From positions 80,335 through 144,334 of the IMG/VR virus record IMGVR_UViG_3300029288_000085: a stretch of DNA of 64,000 bases. The stretch is one strand, 5' to 3'. The translations under genes were made by a program, and so were the position numbers. The stretch's first letter is position 1. Every line of letters starts with the position of its first letter. Of this stretch, positions 1,047-29,275 are shown one piece after another. Below the pieces are notes generated by a model that was not told the DNA's origin, made no database searches, and worked only from the letters and a program-made list of their open reading frames with translations. The stretch is from a virus. Taxonomy: Duplodnaviria; Caudoviricetes.

Positions 1047-1985
1047 TCATTTACATTGCATATCAGATAGTTTACATCCTTCTATGCTATGTACTTTTCT
1101 CTCACATTCTTTGCATAATGTTATTCCCATATCTACATCAGCACTTTCTATAGGATTCCATCTTATGCCTTCTTTGTGATGAGCTATAAGATTTTCTGTT
1201 GAACCACATTTAGTACATTTATAACCATCACGCTCTTTTACCATTTCAGACCAGTCATGTTGATCTGGTCTTTCATTTTCATTCAGCCTAAACCCTTTAG
1301 GATATTTCTTTTGGTTAAATATAGAACAACTTTTCTTGCACTTGACAGAACAATAAAAATGGTTTTCACTAGTCGTAGTTCCATTAATTGATCTTAATCT
1401 ATTTTCTACTGAGGTTCTAGTTGGTGTATACCATTTTTTGCAATTAGCACATCTTACTTGTAATATATTTTTTTCTTTTGGGTTTTCCCTAATTTCTTCA
1501 CAAAAAGAAATTTGACTAGAATATGTATTAAACCATGCTAAATTTCTTTTAGATACACCATTTTTCCAATTAGGATGATTTTCTTCTCTGAATTTACCTA
1601 TCATAATTTCACTTAATTTTTTTCGGGTTTCTCTAGATACAAACTTTCCCTTTTGGGCAATACTCATCTTTACTTTGGTTTCTTTAGATGTTGGTTTAGT
1701 TCTAATTTTCTTTAGCCCTTTTTGTGCTAATCCCATCCGAATCTTAGTTTCCTCAGATCTGATTTTACCTTTATTACCATAACTAATTTTTGCTTTAGAT
1801 TCATCACTAAACCTTTTACATTTCAAGCTACAAAATCTTCCACAACTATTTCTTGGAGCTAAAAACGGTTCTCTACAAGTTTCACAAGAATCAATATATG
1901 TATATCGGTTATTAGTAATTAAATCCTTCCAATATCCTTTTCTATAATATCTTAAATTTTCTATATTTTCCCAAGTAATTTTCAT
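1047..1985 (-). CDS. HNH homing endonuclease with NUMOD3-like DNA-binding repeats
   Basis: SEETKIRMG/SKETKVKMSIAQKG repeats; C-terminal ERDGYKCTKCG...AHH...GITLCKECERKVH HNH motif. Confidence 0.8.
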   Translation of the reverse strand: MKITWENIENLRYYRKGYWKDLITNNRYTYIDSCETCREPFLAPRNSCGRFCSLKCKRFSDESKAKISYGNKGKIRSEETKIRMGLAQKGLKKIRTKPTSKETKVKMSIAQKGKFVSRETRKKLSEIMIGKFREENHPNWKNGVSKRNLAWFNTYSSQISFCEEIRENPKEKNILQVRCANCKKWYTPTRTSVENRLRSINGTTTSENHFYCSVKCKKSCSIFNQKKYPKGFRLNENERPDQHDWSEMVKERDGYKCTKCGSTENLIAHHKEGIRWNPIESADVDMGITLCKECERKVHSIEGCKLSDMQCK

Positions 1986-3216: not shown

Positions 3217-3534
3217 CTACTTTAAATATAAGACCACATGATCTATTTCACCTGCTAGATCTCTCGGTTTTCTTATTTTTACTATCTTATATTTCAGACT
3301 ATCTTTCTCTATAACATAAGACTCTAGAATAGTATTGTATTCTGGAGAAAGATATACTCTTATATCATAATCTAATGCTTCAGCTACATTTGAGAGATCT
3401 TTTAGTGTGCCTTCTTCCCACCGACATTGTACATCGTGATATACGGTGGTTGTAACTAATTTTCCATATGCATTCTTAGTAGTTGAATATATATAGTCAA
3501 TGCTATTATTCAATAAACCTGCTGTAATTGACAT
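3217..3534 (-). CDS. Head closure / stopper protein
   Basis: 105 aa, beta-rich, NAYG...VQCRWE...DLAGEIDH pattern; synteny. Confidence 0.6.
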   Translation of the reverse strand: MSITAGLLNNSIDYIYSTTKNAYGKLVTTTVYHDVQCRWEEGTLKDLSNVAEALDYDIRVYLSPEYNTILESYVIEKDSLKYKIVKIRKPRDLAGEIDHVVLYLK

Positions 3535-3723
3535 TTATTTACCTTTCTTTTTTCGCTTAAAGCCCTTGAGCGTCTTAGCAAGTGCTCACCTACGTTTGCT
3601 TGTAGATGAGAGGCTAGACTGAGCACAATATTCAGAAATTGACATCCCTCTACGATCTGCGGAGGCTATCAAACTTCCTTTTTTAGAAATAGCACTGGCG
3701 ATCCAATTCTTTTTCTTAGCCAT
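3535..3723 (-). CDS. Small basic protein with in-frame TGA at codon 46 (candidate selenoprotein, otherwise nonsense allele)
   Basis: MAKKKNWIASAISKKGSLIASADRRGMSISEYCAQSSLSSTSKRR[TGA]ALAKTLKGFKRKKKGK-TAA; the TAA abuts the ATG of the next gene. Confidence 0.6.
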
Positions 3724-5265: not shown

Positions 5266-7476
5266 TTATTTAAATGTTGTTTTCCTTTTATTGGATATAA
5301 AGCTTCTAGATCTCGTTATAATTAGACTAGATGACTTTCTTATTTCTGCAAAATTTCTTGTTCTTTCTAAATCATTAAATTCATATCTGAATACATCATA
5401 TGATGAACTTTGTGAACTAGAGCTAGAAGACTTTGAGCTAGATGATTTAGAACTAGAAGACTTAGAGCTAGAAGACTTTGAGCTAGACGACTTAGAACTA
5501 CTGACAGAGCTAGAACTTTGTGAACTAGAGCTAGAAGACTTAGAACTAGACGACTTAGAACTACTAACAGAACTAGAACTTTGTGAACTAGAACTAGAAG
5601 ACTTAGAACTACTAACCGAACTAGAGCTAGAAGACTTAGAACTACTTTGTGAGCTAGAACTAGATGATTTAGAACTAGACGACTTAGAACTACTAACCGA
5701 ACTAGAGCTAGAAGACTTTGAGCTAGAAGACTTAGAACTACTTTGTGAGCTAGAACTAGATGATTTAGAACTACTTTGTGAGCTAGAACTAGAAGACTTA
5801 GAACTACTTTGTGAGCTAGAACTAGAAGACTTAGAACTACTTTGTGAGCTAGAACTAGATGATTTAGAACTACTTTGTGAGCTAGAACTAGATGATTTAG
5901 AACTACTAACCGAACTAGAGCTAGAAGACTTAGAACTACTAACAGAACTAGAACTTTGTGAACTAGAACTAGAAGACTTAGAACTACTAACCGAACTAGA
6001 GCTAGAAGACTTAGAGCTACTAACCGAACTAGAACTAGATGACTTAGAGCTACTAACCGAACTAGAACTAGATGACTTAGAGCTACTTTGTGAGCTAGAA
6101 CTCTGTGAACTAGAACTAGAAGACTTAGAACTAGATGATTTAGAACTACTAACAGAACTAGAGCTAGAAGACTTAGAACTACTAACAGAGCTAGAACTCT
6201 GTGAACTAGAACTAGAAGACTTAGAACTAGATGATTTAGAACTACTAACAGAACTAGAGCTAGAAGACTTAGAACTACTTTGTGAACTAGAACTAGAAGA
6301 CTTAGAACTAGATGATTTAGAACTACTAACCGAACTAGAACTTTGTGAACTAGAGCTAGAAGACTTAGAACTACTAACAGAACTAGAACTTTGTGAACTA
6401 GAACTAGATGATTTAGAACTACTCTGTGAACTAGAGCTAGAAGACTTAGAACTACTTTGTGAACTAGAACTAGAAGACTTAGAACTAGACGACTTAGAAC
6501 TCGACGACTTAGAACTACTAACAGAACTAGAACTCTGTGAACTAGAACTAGAAGACTTAGAACTAGATGATTTAGAACTACTGACAGAGCTAGAACTCTG
6601 TGAACTAGAACTAGACGACTTAGAACTACTAACCGAACTAGAGCTAGAAGACTTTGAGCTAGAAGACTTAGAACTACTTTGTGAGCTAGAACTAGATGAT
6701 TTAGAACTACTTTGTGAGCTAGAACTAGAAGACTTAGAACTACTAACCGAACTAGAGCTAGAAGACTTAGAACTACTTTGTGAGCTAGAACTAGATGATT
6801 TAGAACTAGATCTACTTGAACTTATACTTGAAGAACTTTTACTAGAAGATGATTTACTTGAACTAGACTTAGAACTAGATGATTTAGAACTACTTTGTGA
6901 GCTAGAACTAGAACTAACAAAAGTACCCCCGCCAAAATCATCAATTCTAAGATTAGTTCCATAACAACATAGTCCGATATATCCAGCAGACCCATAAGTT
7001 GAATCTGTTGTGGATAATTTTTCAGTCCATGCTCCTCCTGTGTAATAATAAGCTTTTAAGGCTGTACCTATCGCCGAAAGTCCAATTTTCTCCCCACTGG
7101 CTACATTCTGAGTCGTAGTTGCTAAGGTTGTCCATCCACCATTAAGCATCTCGTTGATGTCCCATGTGTCAGGAGAATCATTCAGATTTATATCTAAAAT
7201 ATATCCATCGCAAGTACCAATGTTTAAGGTTGTAGTTCTAATTGCAAGAGATACTTCATCATTAGTTACAGTGGATATAGTTGCAAAGACTTCGGAAGCA
7301 GCCCCAAATGTTGCAGTGTCCCAAGCTCCAACATTAAGGGCACCAGCAGTTCCTCCTGTACACGCATTACTCTGAATCTTAAGTGTATTGAGCATATTCG
7401 TCCAATTCGCATTGGGCGGGGTGGTATTATTCGCACCCGTGAATGTTTCAATTACACCAGTAGTAGGAAATGCCAT
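5266..7476 (-). CDS. Serine-rich repeat virion protein (N-terminal beta-sandwich/lectin-like head, ~500-aa poly-Ser stalk, short basic C-terminal tail)
   Basis: ORF track. Residues ~1-187 are globular and Trp/Thr/Gly-rich; residues ~188-692 are Ser runs punctuated by K/Q/V. Located in the virion module directly upstream of the adaptor. Confidence 0.75.
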   Translation of the reverse strand: MAFPTTGVIETFTGANNTTPPNANWTNMLNTLKIQSNACTGGTAGALNVGAWDTATFGAASEVFATISTVTNDEVSLAIRTTTLNIGTCDGYILDINLNDSPDTWDINEMLNGGWTTLATTTQNVASGEKIGLSAIGTALKAYYYTGGAWTEKLSTTDSTYGSAGYIGLCCYGTNLRIDDFGGGTFVSSSSSSQSSSKSSSSKSSSSKSSSSKSSSSISSSRSSSKSSSSSSQSSSKSSSSSSVSSSKSSSSSSQSSSKSSSSSSQSSSKSSSSKSSSSSSVSSSKSSSSSSQSSSSVSSSKSSSSKSSSSSSQSSSSVSSSKSSSSKSSSSKSSSSSSQSSSKSSSSSSQSSSKSSSSSSQSSSSVSSSKSSSSSSQSSSSVSSSKSSSSKSSSSSSQSSSKSSSSSSVSSSKSSSSKSSSSSSQSSSSVSSSKSSSSSSVSSSKSSSSKSSSSSSQSSSSQSSSKSSSSSSVSSSKSSSSSSVSSSKSSSSSSVSSSKSSSSSSQSSSSVSSSKSSSSSSVSSSKSSSSSSQSSSKSSSSSSQSSSKSSSSSSQSSSKSSSSSSQSSSKSSSSSSQSSSKSSSSKSSSSSSVSSSKSSSSKSSSSSSQSSSKSSSSSSVSSSKSSSSSSQSSSSVSSSKSSSSKSSSSSSQSSSSVSSSKSSSSKSSSSKSSSSKSSSSKSSSSSSQSSSYDVFRYEFNDLERTRNFAEIRKSSSLIITRSRSFISNKRKTTFK
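5400..6918. repeat. Low-complexity coding tandem repeat (TCTAGT/TCTAGC units) encoding poly-Ser
   Basis: Plus strand reads gaactagaactagaagacttagaactact...; includes 30-bp units such as ctactttgtgagctagaactagaagactta repeated many times. Confidence 0.95.
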
Positions 7477-15005: not shown

Positions 15006-15680
15006 CTATCTCTCATCCTTATAATTATAAACCTTCAACAGAGAAGAAAGTTTTTCAAATAAGTCATTAATAGAAAAATCACACACATTAGTAAAGAACC
15101 CATTATATATAGTCTCCCAATTCTTGTATAAATCTATCTGAGAGGTATCCAAACCTCTAGGGTATCTTTCTTTTTGCCCTTCATGTCTAATTCTTTCCCA
15201 AGGTTTTAACATAATATCTTCAAAAGGTAATCCTAAAAACTTACACATTTTGTCAGTTTCTAATTTTATGTTAGTAATTACATCTTCAACCTTTATAGTT
15301 AATATATTTCCTGGAAAATTTTTATATAGTTCACAATATATAAAGGCAGCCCAAAACATATCTTTTATGTTACCTTTAAAACTTGCATCATCTGCTCTTT
15401 TCCATCCTCTGAAGATTTTACTTGCTGCTTGATCAAATGGATGACGAGTAGTCCAAATAATCTTACTATCAGGGTTATTTATAAAAAACCTACATACAAC
15501 ATTAAAATTAGGTATGTAGTTAGTATCACACTTTGTTAAATAGTTATGGATATATAATGTATCTCTCAAAAATAATTGTTTATCTTCGGGATAAGATGAG
15601 GGGATCAAAAAAGATGAACCCGAAATAATTTCAAGTATCAAATTTGTCCCAGAACGTCCATTACTTAAAACTACTACCAT
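15006..15680 (-). CDS. PAPS-dependent sulfotransferase
   Basis: 5'-PSB loop GRSGTNL, 3'-PB motif RHPFDQAAS, and KVED...MCKFLGLPF. Confidence 0.8.
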   Translation of the reverse strand: MVVVLSNGRSGTNLILEIISGSSFLIPSSYPEDKQLFLRDTLYIHNYLTKCDTNYIPNFNVVCRFFINNPDSKIIWTTRHPFDQAASKIFRGWKRADDASFKGNIKDMFWAAFIYCELYKNFPGNILTIKVEDVITNIKLETDKMCKFLGLPFEDIMLKPWERIRHEGQKERYPRGLDTSQIDLYKNWETIYNGFFTNVCDFSINDLFEKLSSLLKVYNYKDER

Positions 15681-17924: not shown

Positions 17925-18442
17925 TCTTCTCCTTCATGTTTTATCTTATCTAAACTACCAAAATATTTTGATATGCCATCCTTGACATATTTACGAGTAT
18001 AATCATGCCCTGCAATATATCCACCTTTCTTTACTTTGGGCATATATAATTCTACGTCCTTGCAAACTATTTCAACCCTATGATCACCATCTATATAAAC
18101 AAAATCTAATTCTTCATCTGGGATACGAGTATGAGCATTCCATGAATAATCTATTATCCATACTATTTTAGACTGATAACTTTTCAGATATTCTTTAGCA
18201 AAATCAAGAGATTCAGGTGACTGTTTATTAGTAGAAAGTGTTCCATCTTTTGCAGAAGGGTATGGTTGATAAGAATCTATAAGATAAATAGTTTTAATAT
18301 TCAATGTTGACAATATGCGTAATGCATTATACCCATATTGCACACCTACTTCTGCAACAATCATTTCACTTCTACTTCTCAAAGCTTCTAACTTCAAAAA
18401 TGGTCTGTTCTTATTATTTTGTCTTTCAGGATTAGGTAGCAC
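17900..18442 (-). CDS. Class I SAM methyltransferase (Methyltransf_24-like)
   Basis: AEVGV...LDFVYIDGDH...GGYIAGHDY. Confidence 0.85.
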   Translation of the reverse strand: MLPNPERQNNKNRPFLKLEALRSRSEMIVAEVGVQYGYNALRILSTLNIKTIYLIDSYQPYPSAKDGTLSTNKQSPESLDFAKEYLKSYQSKIVWIIDYSWNAHTRIPDEELDFVYIDGDHRVEIVCKDVELYMPKVKKGGYIAGHDYTRKYVKDGISKYFGSLDKIKHEGEDWWIRLEK

Positions 18443-19682
18443 TTTTCTGTCCTAATAATATTTTCTGATGCCAAGGAATCTTATCCTTGAACATTTCTAC
18501 AAACCATTTCTGTATTTCTTTCAATTGTTGATTTGTGAAATTGGGTGTAGACCATATATCATTTGCGTACTCATCTACTTTACTCCAATCTACATCTTTA
18601 AATCTTTTGTAATCATAAAACTCTGTCCCTGGATATGGAGCTAGAATTGTAAATCCAATAACATCAGGATCTATATCTTTAGCTAATTCCATCGTTTTCA
18701 TTATTGAATCATTATCTTCTTCTGGTGTTCCTAATAGGAAGAATGCTCGTCTACTTAACCCATACTTTCTTCCCCATTCAAATACTTTCTTGATCTTATT
18801 TACAGTTACACCCTTATTTATACTGTTCAAGATTTTCTGAGAACCTGATTCTACTCCTACCATAATCATATCACAATCTGCTTTTGTCATCATCTCCAAA
18901 CTTTTTTCAGTTGCATAAGCAGCATGAACCATACAATCCCACTTGATATTATTTCTTCGCTTAATCTTCTCATTACAGAAGTTTAGTACTACGTTGTCAG
19001 ATACTGCCCATGTAGGATCTACAAATTTGATTCTATTTATATTATATTCTTTCTGCAAATACTCTATTTCATCCATCACATCGTTAGGATTTCTTATTCG
19101 CACATTTCCTTGTGTCATGCAGAATTCAGCACACATTTTACAATGACTCTTACACCCTCTTATACTCTGAACACTAGCAATCCTCTCCCCAAAATTCTTT
19201 TCACAATAGTCAAACTGTCTTTCTATCTTCATTGCTTTTCTATCTGGCCAATATCTAACGTAAGGAATAAGAAAACCTTCAAAGATTCTAAGTGATAAAT
19301 TCTTCAGAGATAATACAACAGGCAGAGTTACATCCCCCTCTCCTGCAATAATATAGTCAACAAATTTTGGGATTTCTAAAAAACCTGTTCTATAAGAAGC
19401 AGTTACATGCCATCCCCCCAATATAGTTTTTACATTAGGGTTGATCTTCTTTATCTCTTCCACAAAATATAATGCACGAGAATACGTAGGGCTTGTAGCA
19501 GATAAACATACAAAATCAGCCTTTGAGGATTCCTTAATTATATCTTCAGATTTATCAAATGCTTCGTGAAAAAAAAGAATATCTATATTTTTTATTAATA
19601 ACTTACATGCTTGAATAAGATATCCCGACCAAAGTGGTTCCCAAAAATTATGATAATATGGTTGTATAAAACTTACTTTCAT
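18432..19682 (-). CDS. Cobalamin-binding radical SAM enzyme
   Basis: N-terminal ILGGWHVT...IAGEGD B12 domain; RGCKSHCKMC CxxxCxxC; GVESGSQKIL; PYPGT. Confidence 0.9.
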   Translation of the reverse strand: MKVSFIQPYYHNFWEPLWSGYLIQACKLLIKNIDILFFHEAFDKSEDIIKESSKADFVCLSATSPTYSRALYFVEEIKKINPNVKTILGGWHVTASYRTGFLEIPKFVDYIIAGEGDVTLPVVLSLKNLSLRIFEGFLIPYVRYWPDRKAMKIERQFDYCEKNFGERIASVQSIRGCKSHCKMCAEFCMTQGNVRIRNPNDVMDEIEYLQKEYNINRIKFVDPTWAVSDNVVLNFCNEKIKRRNNIKWDCMVHAAYATEKSLEMMTKADCDMIMVGVESGSQKILNSINKGVTVNKIKKVFEWGRKYGLSRRAFFLLGTPEEDNDSIMKTMELAKDIDPDVIGFTILAPYPGTEFYDYKRFKDVDWSKVDEYANDIWSTPNFTNQQLKEIQKWFVEMFKDKIPWHQKILLGQKSAT

Positions 19683-27430: not shown

Positions 27431-28854
27431 GGCTTAAATATCCAAAAGTCATGAGATCTAGAATCATTAGCATCAACCGCAGAAAAGATTTCTACACCTT
27501 TAGCTTTGAAAAAATCATATACTGCTCTTTTTACTTGATTACCATCATTCTCCTCATCAAAATCATGCCCTGCAACAAGACCTCCTGATTTGACTTTAGG
27601 ATAATATAATTCTAAATCTTTCATCACTGCATCATATTTATGATCCCCATCTATATATACAAAATCTAATAATCTATCAATCTTCTCATATGCCTTGTCT
27701 GATGGCTCATAAATCCATGTGATTTTACGCATAAAATTATGAAGTAATTTTATAGAATCATTCTTTGTTTCATCATCATTTATATATGGGTCTATAAGAT
27801 ACATGTGTTCAATACTTAGATTAGCAAATATATTAAAGGCATTCTGACCTCTAAAAACGCCAATCTCTGCACCAATCATATCTTTCTTATCTTCAAGATT
27901 CCTGATTGATGGTCTATCTATTTTTCTAACTATATTTACCATTCGAGCAAATACAGCTTCCCAAGTATATTCATTTACAGCCCTTGTTCTACCATTTATT
28001 GCAACTTTATAAGCCATACTATCATCAACTGATTTCATTAACTTGAGTAAATCATTTTCATTTTTGAAATAGAAAAGGTCTTTCTTGTCTTCAAAATATT
28101 TATTGAGTGTGCCAGTTGAATCTAAATGAAATACACAAGAACCACAAGCAAGGTATCTTATCAGTCTATTACTAAAATATTCTGTATGGATATCATTATA
28201 AGTATTTAATGATAGCATAAATTTTGATGATGAACACACTGTTGCAAAATCTGATTCAACAACTTCTTGTGGACTGTAACCATTACCATAGAACTTCACA
28301 TTATATCCGGCATCCTCAAGAACCTTTTTATACTTGTCACGTTCTGGAGTTTTAGAACCAATAAACGATATATCTGCTATACAATTACTATTTGAGTCTG
28401 TTGGTCTAAAAATGCTTGCGTCAATACCTTGTATAATGTGATGACATTTTCTTACACCCTCTGATTCGAACCATTGAGCAATATCTAATCCTGTACAAGA
28501 ACTGAAATTAGCATTTTTAGCATGTTGTATAACTTCAGGGCAAGATTCAATCGTCTTTTTAGGATCAGGATTAAATAGCCATGTTTGCGTATAAGCATTA
28601 CTTTTAGTAATAAGATCTGAATTCATACCATTACATTTGAAAAATACAGTTAAATATGGTCTGTGCTTATCTAATGTATATAACAACATATCTTCAAAAA
28701 ATTTATTTCCTTTACTAGATATAATTGTCCTATAATTTATAGGTAGTACTTCAAACCCTAACCTCAAAGCAGCTTTCGAAAAAGCAATATTTGTAGATCC
28801 TCGTTTGTCTAAAACGCCGACTATACAAATTGTTTTCTTATCATTATTATCCAT
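27427..28854 (-). CDS. Glycosyltransferase (CgeB-like) fused to Methyltransf_24-like domain
   Basis: DISFIGS...YFSNRL..YLACG...EYTWE followed by GAEIGV...FVYIDGDH...AGHDF. Confidence 0.8.
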   Translation of the reverse strand: MDNNDKKTICIVGVLDKRGSTNIAFSKAALRLGFEVLPINYRTIISSKGNKFFEDMLLYTLDKHRPYLTVFFKCNGMNSDLITKSNAYTQTWLFNPDPKKTIESCPEVIQHAKNANFSSCTGLDIAQWFESEGVRKCHHIIQGIDASIFRPTDSNSNCIADISFIGSKTPERDKYKKVLEDAGYNVKFYGNGYSPQEVVESDFATVCSSSKFMLSLNTYNDIHTEYFSNRLIRYLACGSCVFHLDSTGTLNKYFEDKKDLFYFKNENDLLKLMKSVDDSMAYKVAINGRTRAVNEYTWEAVFARMVNIVRKIDRPSIRNLEDKKDMIGAEIGVFRGQNAFNIFANLSIEHMYLIDPYINDDETKNDSIKLLHNFMRKITWIYEPSDKAYEKIDRLLDFVYIDGDHKYDAVMKDLELYYPKVKSGGLVAGHDFDEENDGNQVKRAVYDFFKAKGVEIFSAVDANDSRSHDFWIFKP

Positions 28855-29275
28855 TTATCTTCTCCATTATTCCTATAATAATATTATCATAAGTATCTGG
28901 TTTTCGATATACAATCACATCATCCTCTTCAGTTGGCTTTTCAAAGTATGAATCTTTCCACATATACTCAGTTGTACCATCAACAAATATCTGAATAGGT
29001 TTGATAAACTTCCTCATACACTCCAACCTCACTTTTCTAATTGGAGCAACCATTGCTATAATTGGTAAAACACCTTGCTTCTCAAATCTAGCTGCTAGAT
29101 TAGATAACATATGCATCCATTTTGTTCTATCCTCATCAGTAAATCCTTTATAATATAAATCTTCTCTCATCTCATCTGCATCAAGTAATATCGAATTACT
29201 AATACTACTATTAAGATATCTTCCTAACGTACTTTTTCCCATTTTTACATACCCAAAAATAATGATTACTGCCAT
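28847..29275 (-). CDS. cysC: Adenylyl-sulfate (APS) kinase-like protein
   Basis: P-loop GYVKMGKST, LLDADEMR, GFTDEDR, IAMVAP...R, FEKP; shorter than cellular CysC. Confidence 0.7.
   Translation of the reverse strand: MAVIIIFGYVKMGKSTLGRYLNSSISNSILLDADEMREDLYYKGFTDEDRTKWMHMLSNLAARFEKQGVLPIIAMVAPIRKVRLECMRKFIKPIQIFVDGTTEYMWKDSYFEKPTEEDDVIVYRKPDTYDNIIIGIMEKING

What the first reader, a model, noticed from the sequence alone, without database searches (positions are those of the whole stretch)
3535..3723. Candidate phage selenoprotein: in-frame TGA at a Cys-like position with a SECIS-like hairpin
Seen: the ORF reads MAKKKNWIASAISKKGSL...SISEYCAQSSLSSTSKRR-TGA(3588-3586)-ALAKTLKGFKRKKKGK-TAA. Read-through ends exactly at the next gene's ATG (TAAATG), fitting the tight coupling seen throughout the operon, and the protein-like basic sequence continues past the TGA. 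A hairpin CGCTCAAG-GGC-TTTAAGCG starts 13 nt after the TGA; its G-initiated loop is ~21 nt from the codon, as in the bacterial SECIS model. TGA is a normal stop in other genes here, so this is not genome-wide recoding. Inference: Sec pairs with the single upstream Cys in a small basic virion-module protein, implying a Sec-using host.
Basis: partly seen in the sequence, partly recalled or inferred. Interest (0 to 1): 0.72.

Follow-up and report, generated by a model that had tools for sequence, protein, structure and literature searches.

The report
Phage small protein with selenocysteine codon
A tiny, very common phage particle-module gene has a UGA "stop" exactly where its relatives need a cysteine. 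At least 15 related phage sequences share this, and all but this one follow the UGA with a strong selenocysteine-insertion hairpin. The family therefore looks like a phage selenoprotein family, and this phage is a probable but weaker member.

Summary
A 45-codon minus-strand ORF (3723..3589) ends at TGA (3588-3586). The frame then runs 16 more codons to TAA (3537-3535), which abuts the next gene's ATG.

The TGA aligns with an invariant Cys in more than 160 relatives. My first searches found only TGC/TGT there, and the local hairpin is weak: -2.8 kcal/mol as a G-loop hairpin, and the MFE fold is no better than shuffles. I was therefore leaning towards a nonsense mutation.

An exhaustive profile search changed that. 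The family (about 2,759 clusters) contains many members truncated exactly before this Cys. Every one whose DNA I fetched has TGA there, a conserved continuing frame, and a hairpin with a G-rich apical loop 16-22 nt downstream.
- TGA forms: 14 distinct sequences besides the window, hairpins of -6.2 to -10.5 kcal/mol.
- Cys forms: 116 distinct sequences, median 0 kcal/mol (p = 6e-11).
- Compensatory changes occur at synonymous sites.
- Some TGA forms recur in 4-8 contigs from different samples.

Family-level selenocysteine use is therefore well supported (about 0.9). The window is the outlier: its hairpin lies within the Cys-form range, its nearest relatives are Cys forms, and its host is unknown. 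I put Sec at about 0.6 here, nonsense or leaky stop at about 0.35, and error at about 0.03. I found no paper that describes phage selenoproteins. Earlier notes of this scan report other candidate families on other DNA.

The parts
3589..3723 (-). First 45 codons of the small basic gene (MAKKKNWIAS...TSKRR). The ATG overlaps the stop of the upstream 87-aa gene.
   Evidence: phrog_20603 match E 5e-5; homologues of 56-69 aa
3625..3627 (-). TGT codon of Cys33, invariant in the family in both Cys forms and TGA forms
   Evidence: alignments A1, A3, A4
3586..3588 (-). In-frame TGA aligned with the invariant second Cys (position 46); candidate Sec codon
   Evidence: The same codon is TGA in 14 other distinct family sequences.
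3535..3585 (-). Read-through part: 16 codons (ALAKTLKGFKRKKKGK) carrying the family's most conserved motif, then TAA, which abuts the next ATG
3554..3572 (-). Candidate weak SECIS: stem CGCU/AGCG, a C.A mismatch, AAG/UUU, and triloop GGC (3564-3562) 21 nt after the UGA. It is built from the phage's rarest codons (ACG, CTC, GGC, CGA).
   Evidence: Energy -2.8 kcal/mol, against -6.2 to -10.5 in the other TGA forms.
3553..3581 (-). Alternative MFE hairpin (-7.1 kcal/mol, loop CAAG with no G in its first two positions)
   Evidence: not better than shuffles
3217..3534 (-). Downstream head-tail adaptor gene, whose start abuts the read-through stop
   Evidence: phrog_793; syntenic with L082/L083
3716..3979 (-). 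Upstream 87-aa gene of unknown function, translationally coupled to the small gene

Best explanation
The gene belongs to a very large family (about 2,759 clusters) of small (about 60 aa), basic, helical phage proteins encoded in head/neck modules. The family has two invariant cysteines. In a minority of lineages the second cysteine codon is UGA, followed 16-22 nt later by a stable hairpin with a G-rich apical loop. This is the bacterial way of writing selenocysteine: host SelB-GTP carrying Sec-tRNA(Sec) binds the in-ORF hairpin and decodes the UGA. The window's phage carries such a UGA and most likely makes the full 62-residue protein with Sec46 in a Sec-competent host. The element it would use is weak, possibly young. 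It is the intrinsic palindrome of the L-K-G-F-K codons with a GGC loop 21 nt after the UGA, extended by two G-C pairs. Shown: the UGA/Cys alignment, recurrence of UGA in the family, the UGA-specific hairpins and their covariation, and ordinary use of TGA as a stop elsewhere. Inferred: decoding by host SelB, that this particular weak hairpin suffices, and the role of Sec46 (a redox or metal-binding partner of Cys33).
For: 1. The TGA aligns with an invariant Cys in 17 protein homologues and 160 loci.
2. The exhaustive profile search found members truncated exactly before that Cys. A second search found 17 of the best 120 hits at 41-47 aa, and all 14 newly fetched plus the three (all 17) end at ..KR[RQ].
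3. Every truncated form whose DNA I fetched has TGA, with the frame continuing as [AN]L..[KR]T[LF]... That gives 14 distinct sequences besides the window. P0228 and P0211 occur in 4-8 contigs from different samples.
4. G-loop hairpin 14-26 nt after the codon: the 14 other TGA forms score -6.2 to -10.5 kcal/mol, with loops GGG, GGC, GGU, GGA, GGUC, AGUU, GUU. The 116 Cys forms have a median of 0, and only 5 reach -5 or lower. Mann-Whitney p = 6e-11. GC content does not explain this.
5. Covariation: 93.8% of cells are paired, and 3 pairs show changes on both sides, including Leu/Arg third positions. Slid controls give 28-56%.
6. TGA is a normal stop in this phage and in the Sec-form contigs, so this is not a reassigned code.
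7. In the window the loop (GGC) and spacing (21 nt) match the family's elements. The stem and loop use the phage's rarest codons (5-8% each). The downstream motif and the abutting next start are intact. A second assembly shows the same TGA.
Against: - The window's hairpin (-2.8 kcal/mol) is far weaker than that of every other TGA form. It lies within the Cys-form range (19 of 116 as good) and fails my implementation of the published bSECIS model.
- 5.8% of synonymous recodings do as well, and the whole gene has raised GC3, so the rare codons need not reflect selection for structure.
- Its nearest relatives, including the syntenic L082/L083, are Cys forms. No close relative shares its TGA.
- The phage encodes no tRNA-Sec, selA, selB or selD, and the host is unknown.
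- Raw reads could not be inspected.
Confidence: 0.6

Rival explanations
1. Recent nonsense mutation (TGT/TGC to TGA) in a Cys-type gene. Translation stops after 45 residues and the conserved C-terminal helix is lost. The gene is dead or dispensable in this phage, and the downstream frame is intact only because the change is recent. At most, near-cognate read-through (Trp, rarely Cys) yields traces of full-length protein.
For: - The change needs only one base.
- The local hairpin is Cys-form-like in strength and no better than shuffles.
- The same L-K-G-F-K palindrome with a GGU loop exists in a Cys form (L075, -3.1 kcal/mol).
- The nearest and syntenic relatives are Cys forms.
- No other candidate Sec site was found in this 144-kb genome.
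- Frameshift-like broken members of the family do occur in the databases.
Against: - The stop falls on one specific codon out of roughly 25 that can mutate to a stop. That codon is the very one written as TGA, with a SECIS, in at least 14 other family sequences.
- All truncated family members seen end at this codon and none ends elsewhere.
- The truncation would remove the family's most conserved motif, yet it is the consensus in two assemblies of a complete genome.
Confidence: 0.35
2. Sequencing or assembly error: the real codon is TGT or TGC.
For: Only one sample seems to hold this phage. The two assemblies are 100% identical over 5,049 nt outside a repeat, so they are probably not independent reads.
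Against: Two assemblies that differ elsewhere (a repeat collapsed from 736 to 359 aa) agree on the TGA. Consensus substitution errors are rare, and this one would have to hit this exact codon.
Confidence: 0.03
3. Genome-wide reassignment of TGA (code 4 or 25 type) in the phage or its host.
For: Some phages and some candidate-phyla bacteria recode stop codons (my own knowledge). Two family members lie in CPR MAG bins.
Against: - TGA terminates 58 of 237 ORFs, including ATGA overlaps.
- There is no suppressor tRNA; the only tRNA is tRNA-Tyr.
- The aligned residue is Cys, not Trp or Gly.
- No other TGA read-through shows a family match spanning the stop.
Confidence: 0.01

Closest known systems
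Bacterial selenoprotein genes with an in-ORF SECIS bound by SelB (prototype E. coli fdhF; consensus bSECIS model as summarised in PMC13188914)
   Same: UGA at a position that is Cys in homologues. The hairpin lies inside the coding sequence just downstream, with a small apical loop that has G in its first two positions (one family member even has GGUC) and 16-22 nt spacing. TGA otherwise acts as a stop.
   Different: The gene is phage-borne, is not an oxidoreductase of any known family, and encodes a roughly 60-aa basic helical protein of the virion module. The hairpin register differs between lineages. The window's own hairpin fails the model's energy threshold.
Poxvirus glutathione peroxidases (molluscum contagiosum, fowlpox), the accepted viral selenoproteins (PMC8310308)
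   Same: A virus-encoded gene whose UGA is decoded as Sec by host machinery.
   Different: Those are captured cellular enzymes decoded by the eukaryotic SECIS/SBP2 system. Here a phage-specific family uses the bacterial system.
Programmed UGA read-through in phage Qbeta coat/A1 (my own knowledge, not tested here)
   Same: An in-frame UGA in a phage structural-module gene, with a functional longer product.
   Different: Qbeta inserts Trp at low frequency to add a new domain. There the UGA does not replace a conserved Cys and needs no SelB hairpin.
Other candidate phage selenoprotein families noted earlier in this scan (for example e1-5362015, e1-5355223; AI notes)
   Same: The same signature: UGA kept where relatives have Cys, plus a co-varying hairpin, in uncultured phages.
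   Different: They are different protein families. A sequence look-up found this family only at this locus.
phrog_20603 (function unknown), and sub-threshold likeness to ribbon-helix-helix NikA (PF21983) and fusellovirus VP2 (PF25632)
   Same: phrog_20603 matches residues 6-33 (E 5e-5). The weak RHH-like GMSISEY segment and the basic N-terminus recur across members.
   Different: All Pfam scores are below the curated cut-offs (16-21 against 27 bits). The AlphaFold model is three helices with no significant PDB match.

Membership tests
Bacterial-type selenoprotein gene (Sec-UGA with in-ORF SECIS) | In-frame TGA aligned with Cys in homologues | tested here: met
   Invariant Cys in 17 proteins and 160 loci
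Bacterial-type selenoprotein gene (Sec-UGA with in-ORF SECIS) | TGA conserved at the same codon in other, divergent homologues, with coding conservation downstream | tested here: met
   14 other distinct TGA sequences, all with a continuing conserved frame. Some occur in 4-8 contigs from different samples.
Bacterial-type selenoprotein gene (Sec-UGA with in-ORF SECIS) | Family level: a hairpin specific to TGA forms, with G in the first two loop positions and 16-37 nt spacing | tested here: met
   14 of 14 other TGA forms score -6.2 to -10.5 kcal/mol. The 116 Cys forms have median 0. p = 6e-11. Covariation shown.
Bacterial-type selenoprotein gene (Sec-UGA with in-ORF SECIS) | This locus: a SECIS that meets the published model (loop 3-9 nt, upper stem of at least 4 bp, G in loop positions 1-2, spacing 16-37 nt, MFE of -7.5 kcal/mol or lower; PMC13188914) | tested here: not met
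   Loop GGC and spacing 21 nt fit, but the hairpin is -2.8 kcal/mol with a C.A mismatch, and my implementation finds no passing element. The review notes that some real elements fail the model.
Bacterial-type selenoprotein gene (Sec-UGA with in-ORF SECIS) | Sec machinery (selA, selB, selC, selD) available in the cell | not testable with these tools
   Absent from the phage. The host is unknown. A B12-radical SAM gene gives only a hint of an anaerobic host.
Bacterial-type selenoprotein gene (Sec-UGA with in-ORF SECIS) | Selenium actually incorporated at the UGA | not testable with these tools
   Needs 75Se labelling, mass spectrometry or a reporter assay
Stop-codon-reassigned phage or host (TGA as a sense codon) | TGA rarely or never used as a terminator; genes fragmented under code 11 | tested here: not met
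   TGA ends 58 of 237 ORFs, and coding density is 95% under code 11. The same holds in the Sec-form contigs.
phrog_20603 small phage protein | Profile match | tested here: met
   E 5e-5 over residues 6-33; also matched by the domain fused in L002
Ribbon-helix-helix NikA-like (PF21983) | Score above the Pfam gathering threshold | tested here: not met
   16-21 bits against a cut-off of 27. The model has no N-terminal strand.

The most novel reading that the evidence does not exclude
This abundant phage family switches repeatedly between Cys and Sec. The complementary codons of its conserved L-K-G-F-K / T-L-R-R-M-R stretch already form a small hairpin with a GGN loop at SECIS distance, acting as a built-in proto-SECIS. 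On this reading the window catches a nascent Sec codon before its hairpin has been strengthened: an evolutionary intermediate in the birth of a selenoprotein, in a virus.
Probability: 0.3. Interest if true: 0.85.

Novelty: new variant of a known kind. Interest (0 to 1): 0.7.

Why it matters
In the papers I could search, the only accepted viral selenoproteins are two poxvirus peroxidases. A 2026 review of prokaryotic selenoproteomes does not mention phages. This case adds several things:
- A large, phage-specific, virion-module family with a Sec/Cys site would show that phages write selenocysteine into their own genes and depend on host SelB.
- A Sec codon would serve as a host-range marker, because it implies a Sec-competent host.
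- Automated annotation is silently truncating these genes; all the TGA forms are stored as 41-47 aa products.
- The family offers many natural Cys/Sec pairs and diverse minimal SECIS hairpins for studying how Sec sites arise.
- The window's weak element is a useful test of how little structure SelB needs.

Tried and rejected
- **Early searches that misled me.** The tblastn-confirmed locus searches in IMG/VR and JGI metagenomes returned only TGC/TGT forms, because TGA forms rank lower and one seed pattern required Cys. My first TGA-specific patterns found nothing because they were too strict: they demanded Ala at +3 and Lys at +7. On that basis I favoured a nonsense mutation until.
- **Searches that gave nothing useful.**
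  - Phage GenBank searches by DNA and by protein.
  - PDB by sequence and by fold.
  - Rfam on the region.
  - Pfam, which gave only sub-threshold NikA-like and VP2 hits.
- **Host inference failed.**
  - The terminase is only about 34% identical to that of any cultured phage.
  - The RmlB-like gene has no close relative in 185,579 genomes.
  - The family occurs in only two CPR MAG bins.
- **Other sites.** No other TGA read-through in the genome has a PHROG match spanning the stop.
- **Number of origins.** The protein tree gives 8 changes, but an AU test cannot reject a single Sec clade (p = 0.49). The number of origins is unresolved.
- **tRNA-Sec.** None found in five Sec-form IMG/VR fragments.

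Full report
**1. The observation**

On the minus strand an ORF starts at ATG 3723 and overlaps the TAA of the upstream 87-aa gene. It runs 45 codons and meets TGA at 3588-3586. The same frame continues for 16 sense codons to TAA 3537-3535, which is directly followed by the ATG of the next gene. That next gene is a head-tail adaptor (phrog_793). The neighbourhood is a virion module: Ad1-type adaptor, tail terminator, portal, terminase and major head protein.

The window is the last 64 kb of a complete 144,334-bp IMG/VR phage record with terminal repeats and 32.7% GC. TGA is an ordinary terminator in it, ending 58 of 237 crude ORF calls, including ATGA overlaps. The only tRNA is tRNA-Tyr, and the phage has no selA, selB or selD. 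A second public assembly of the same phage (ENA ERZ27247363) carries the identical gene with the TGA. It is 100% identical over 5,049 nt outside a poly-Ser repeat, so it probably comes from the same sample.

**2. The hairpin in the window**

It starts 13 nt after the TGA, and its loop starts 21 nt after it. It contains a C.A mismatch and is worth only -2.7 to -2.8 kcal/mol.

The MFE fold of the region is a different hairpin (-7.1 kcal/mol, loop CAAG) and is no more stable than dinucleotide shuffles (z 0 to +1). The published consensus model for bacterial SECIS elements requires a loop of 3-9 nt, an upper stem of at least 4 bp, G in the first two loop positions, 16-37 nt spacing, and an MFE of -7.5 kcal/mol or lower (PMC13188914). 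My implementation of that model finds no passing element here.

The stem and loop are made of the phage's rarest codons: ACG 6%, CTC 5%, GGC 6% and CGA 8% of their synonymous sets. However, 5.8% of synonymous recodings give as good a G-loop hairpin, and the whole small gene has raised GC3 (0.36 upstream and 0.44 downstream, against about 0.21 in its neighbours). This is therefore only suggestive.

**3. Homologues, and how my reading changed**

The 62-aa read-through has homologues of 56-69 aa that span the TGA. All have Cys at that column and at position 33. In 160 related loci from IMG/VR and JGI metagenomes the codon is TGC or TGT without exception. These include the syntenic relatives L082/L083, with 63% and 42% identity in the flanking adaptor genes. 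Two TGA-specific DNA patterns found nothing in IMG/VR. At that point a one-off TGY-to-TGA nonsense mutation looked most likely.

Those searches were biased. One seed pattern required Cys, TGA forms rank low in tblastn, and my patterns were too strict. An exhaustive HMM search of 1.84 billion representatives (878 hits) turned up three divergent members of 43-46 aa that end exactly before the second Cys. Their DNA shows TGA at that codon, and the frame goes on with the family motif.

Three further steps extended this.
- A looser pattern found five more TGA forms in IMG/VR. It also matches the window.
- A search with a profile of the truncated forms showed that the family has about 2,759 clusters. 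Seventeen of the best 120 hits are 41-47 aa, and all 14 newly fetched plus the three (all 17) end at ..KR[RQ].

DNA for six more lineages again shows TGA and a continuing frame. Two of these products occur in 4-8 contigs from different samples. TGA is a normal stop in these contigs too (15 of 70 ORFs).

**4. The hairpin is specific to TGA forms**

For every sequence I took the best hairpin whose 3-5 nt apical loop has G in its first two positions and starts 14-26 nt after the codon.
- The 14 other distinct TGA sequences score -6.2 to -10.5 kcal/mol. Their loops are GGG, GGC, GGU, GGA, GGUC, AGUU and GUU, at 16-22 nt spacing.
- The 116 distinct Cys-form sequences have a median of 0. Only five reach -5 or lower (Mann-Whitney p = 6e-11).
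- GC content does not explain this. Low-GC TGA forms (27-40% GC) still reach -6.2 to -10.0, whereas no low-GC Cys form goes below -3.7.

In the four sequences that share one register, 93.8% of cells pair and three pairs change on both sides. One of these couples the third position of a Leu codon to the third position of an Arg codon (U-G, G-C, A-U). Slid controls give 28-56%. The register of the hairpin differs between lineages. This is the standard comparative signature of bacterial Sec decoding. I regard Sec use in this family as well supported (about 0.9), short of biochemical proof.

**5. Where the window stands**

The window is the one TGA form without a strong hairpin. Its -2.8 kcal/mol is matched or beaten by 19 of 116 Cys forms. 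One Cys form with the same L-K-G-F-K peptide has an equivalent hairpin (L075, -3.1 kcal/mol), because Leu/Lys and Lys/Phe codons are complementary. Its nearest relatives by identity and on the tree are Cys forms. The 61-column alignment cannot reject a single Sec clade, however (AU p = 0.49). No other UGA site in the genome looks like Sec.

For Sec at this locus:
- The stop sits on the one codon that the family repeatedly writes as Sec, out of roughly 25 codons in the gene that could mutate to a stop.
- All truncated family members seen end at this codon, and none ends elsewhere.
- The loop sequence and spacing fit the family's elements.
- The most conserved motif and the junction with the next gene are intact.

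For a nonsense mutation:
- The hairpin is weak and Cys-form-like.
- No relatives share this TGA.
- The host is unknown.

My estimate is Sec 0.6, recent nonsense or leaky stop 0.35, and error 0.03. A B12-binding radical SAM enzyme, an APS kinase and a sulfotransferase in the adjacent glycan island hint at an anaerobic host, where Sec use is common, but this is weak evidence.

**6. What the protein is**

The function is unknown. The protein matches phrog_20603. Pfam gives only sub-threshold likeness to NikA-type ribbon-helix-helix and to the basic N-terminus of fusellovirus VP2. An AlphaFold model built from 49 sequences gives three helices (residues 2-25, 29-33 and 40-61; pLDDT 72.7). Cys33 sits at the end of the short helix and position 46 early in the last helix. 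There is no significant PDB match.

In relatives the gene lies after the portal gene, near the terminase gene, or fused to the C-terminus of a 601-aa protein. My inference is a small basic virion or assembly protein whose two Cys form a redox or metal site. Sec would make this site more reactive, or more stable under reducing conditions.

**7. Comparison with what is known, and novelty**

The mechanism matches bacterial Sec-UGA/SECIS decoding (PMC13188914). Accepted viral selenoproteins are poxvirus peroxidases that use the eukaryotic system (PMC8310308). Searches of the held library found no paper describing a phage selenoprotein. The field treats singletons without a strong SECIS as unproven (PMC2398784), and that caution applies to the window itself.

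Earlier AI notes of this scan report other candidate phage selenoprotein families on other DNA. This family was noted only at this locus.

Noticed in passing
window 5266-7476 (-) versus L166:190-1269: The poly-Ser protein is 736 aa in this record but 359 aa in the ENA assembly of the same phage. This is either repeat collapse in assembly or real length variation.
   Followed up: partly
window 18432-19682, 28847-29275 and 15006-15680 (-): A B12-binding radical SAM enzyme, an APS kinase and a sulfotransferase lie inside the glycan gene island of the head module (Pfam). This hints at an anaerobic, cobalamin-using host.
   Followed up: partly
L002:1351-3156: In the relative closest by identity (73%), the small-protein domain is the C-terminus of a 601-aa open frame, so the module also occurs fused to a larger protein.
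   Followed up: partly
L169 and L170: The only family members in 185,579 species genomes lie on contigs binned as Candidatus Dojkabacteria and Saccharibacteria MAGs. They are probably phage contigs or prophages. In L169 the neighbouring 528-aa and 82-aa proteins carry other small basic Cys-rich C-terminal modules.
   Followed up: no
L181:4139-4180: One TGA form has a 6-bp stem with a GGUC apical loop, which I recall as the loop of the E. coli fdhF SECIS.
   Followed up: no
P0058, P0063, P0103, P0112: Several database members of the family diverge abruptly after residues 36-48. They look like frameshifts or sequencing errors, so broken copies of this gene do exist.
   Followed up: no
window 1047-1985 (-): An HNH/NUMOD3 homing-endonuclease-like gene sits between the tail-terminator gene and the next structural gene. 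A similar ORF lies beside the small gene in the syntenic relative L082.
   Followed up: no
genome 7703-7785 (outside the window; L001): The only tRNA of the phage, tRNA-Tyr(GTA) with a long variable arm, scores 32.9 bits on the tRNA-Sec model. This is below the cut-off, and its anticodon is not UCA.
   Followed up: yes
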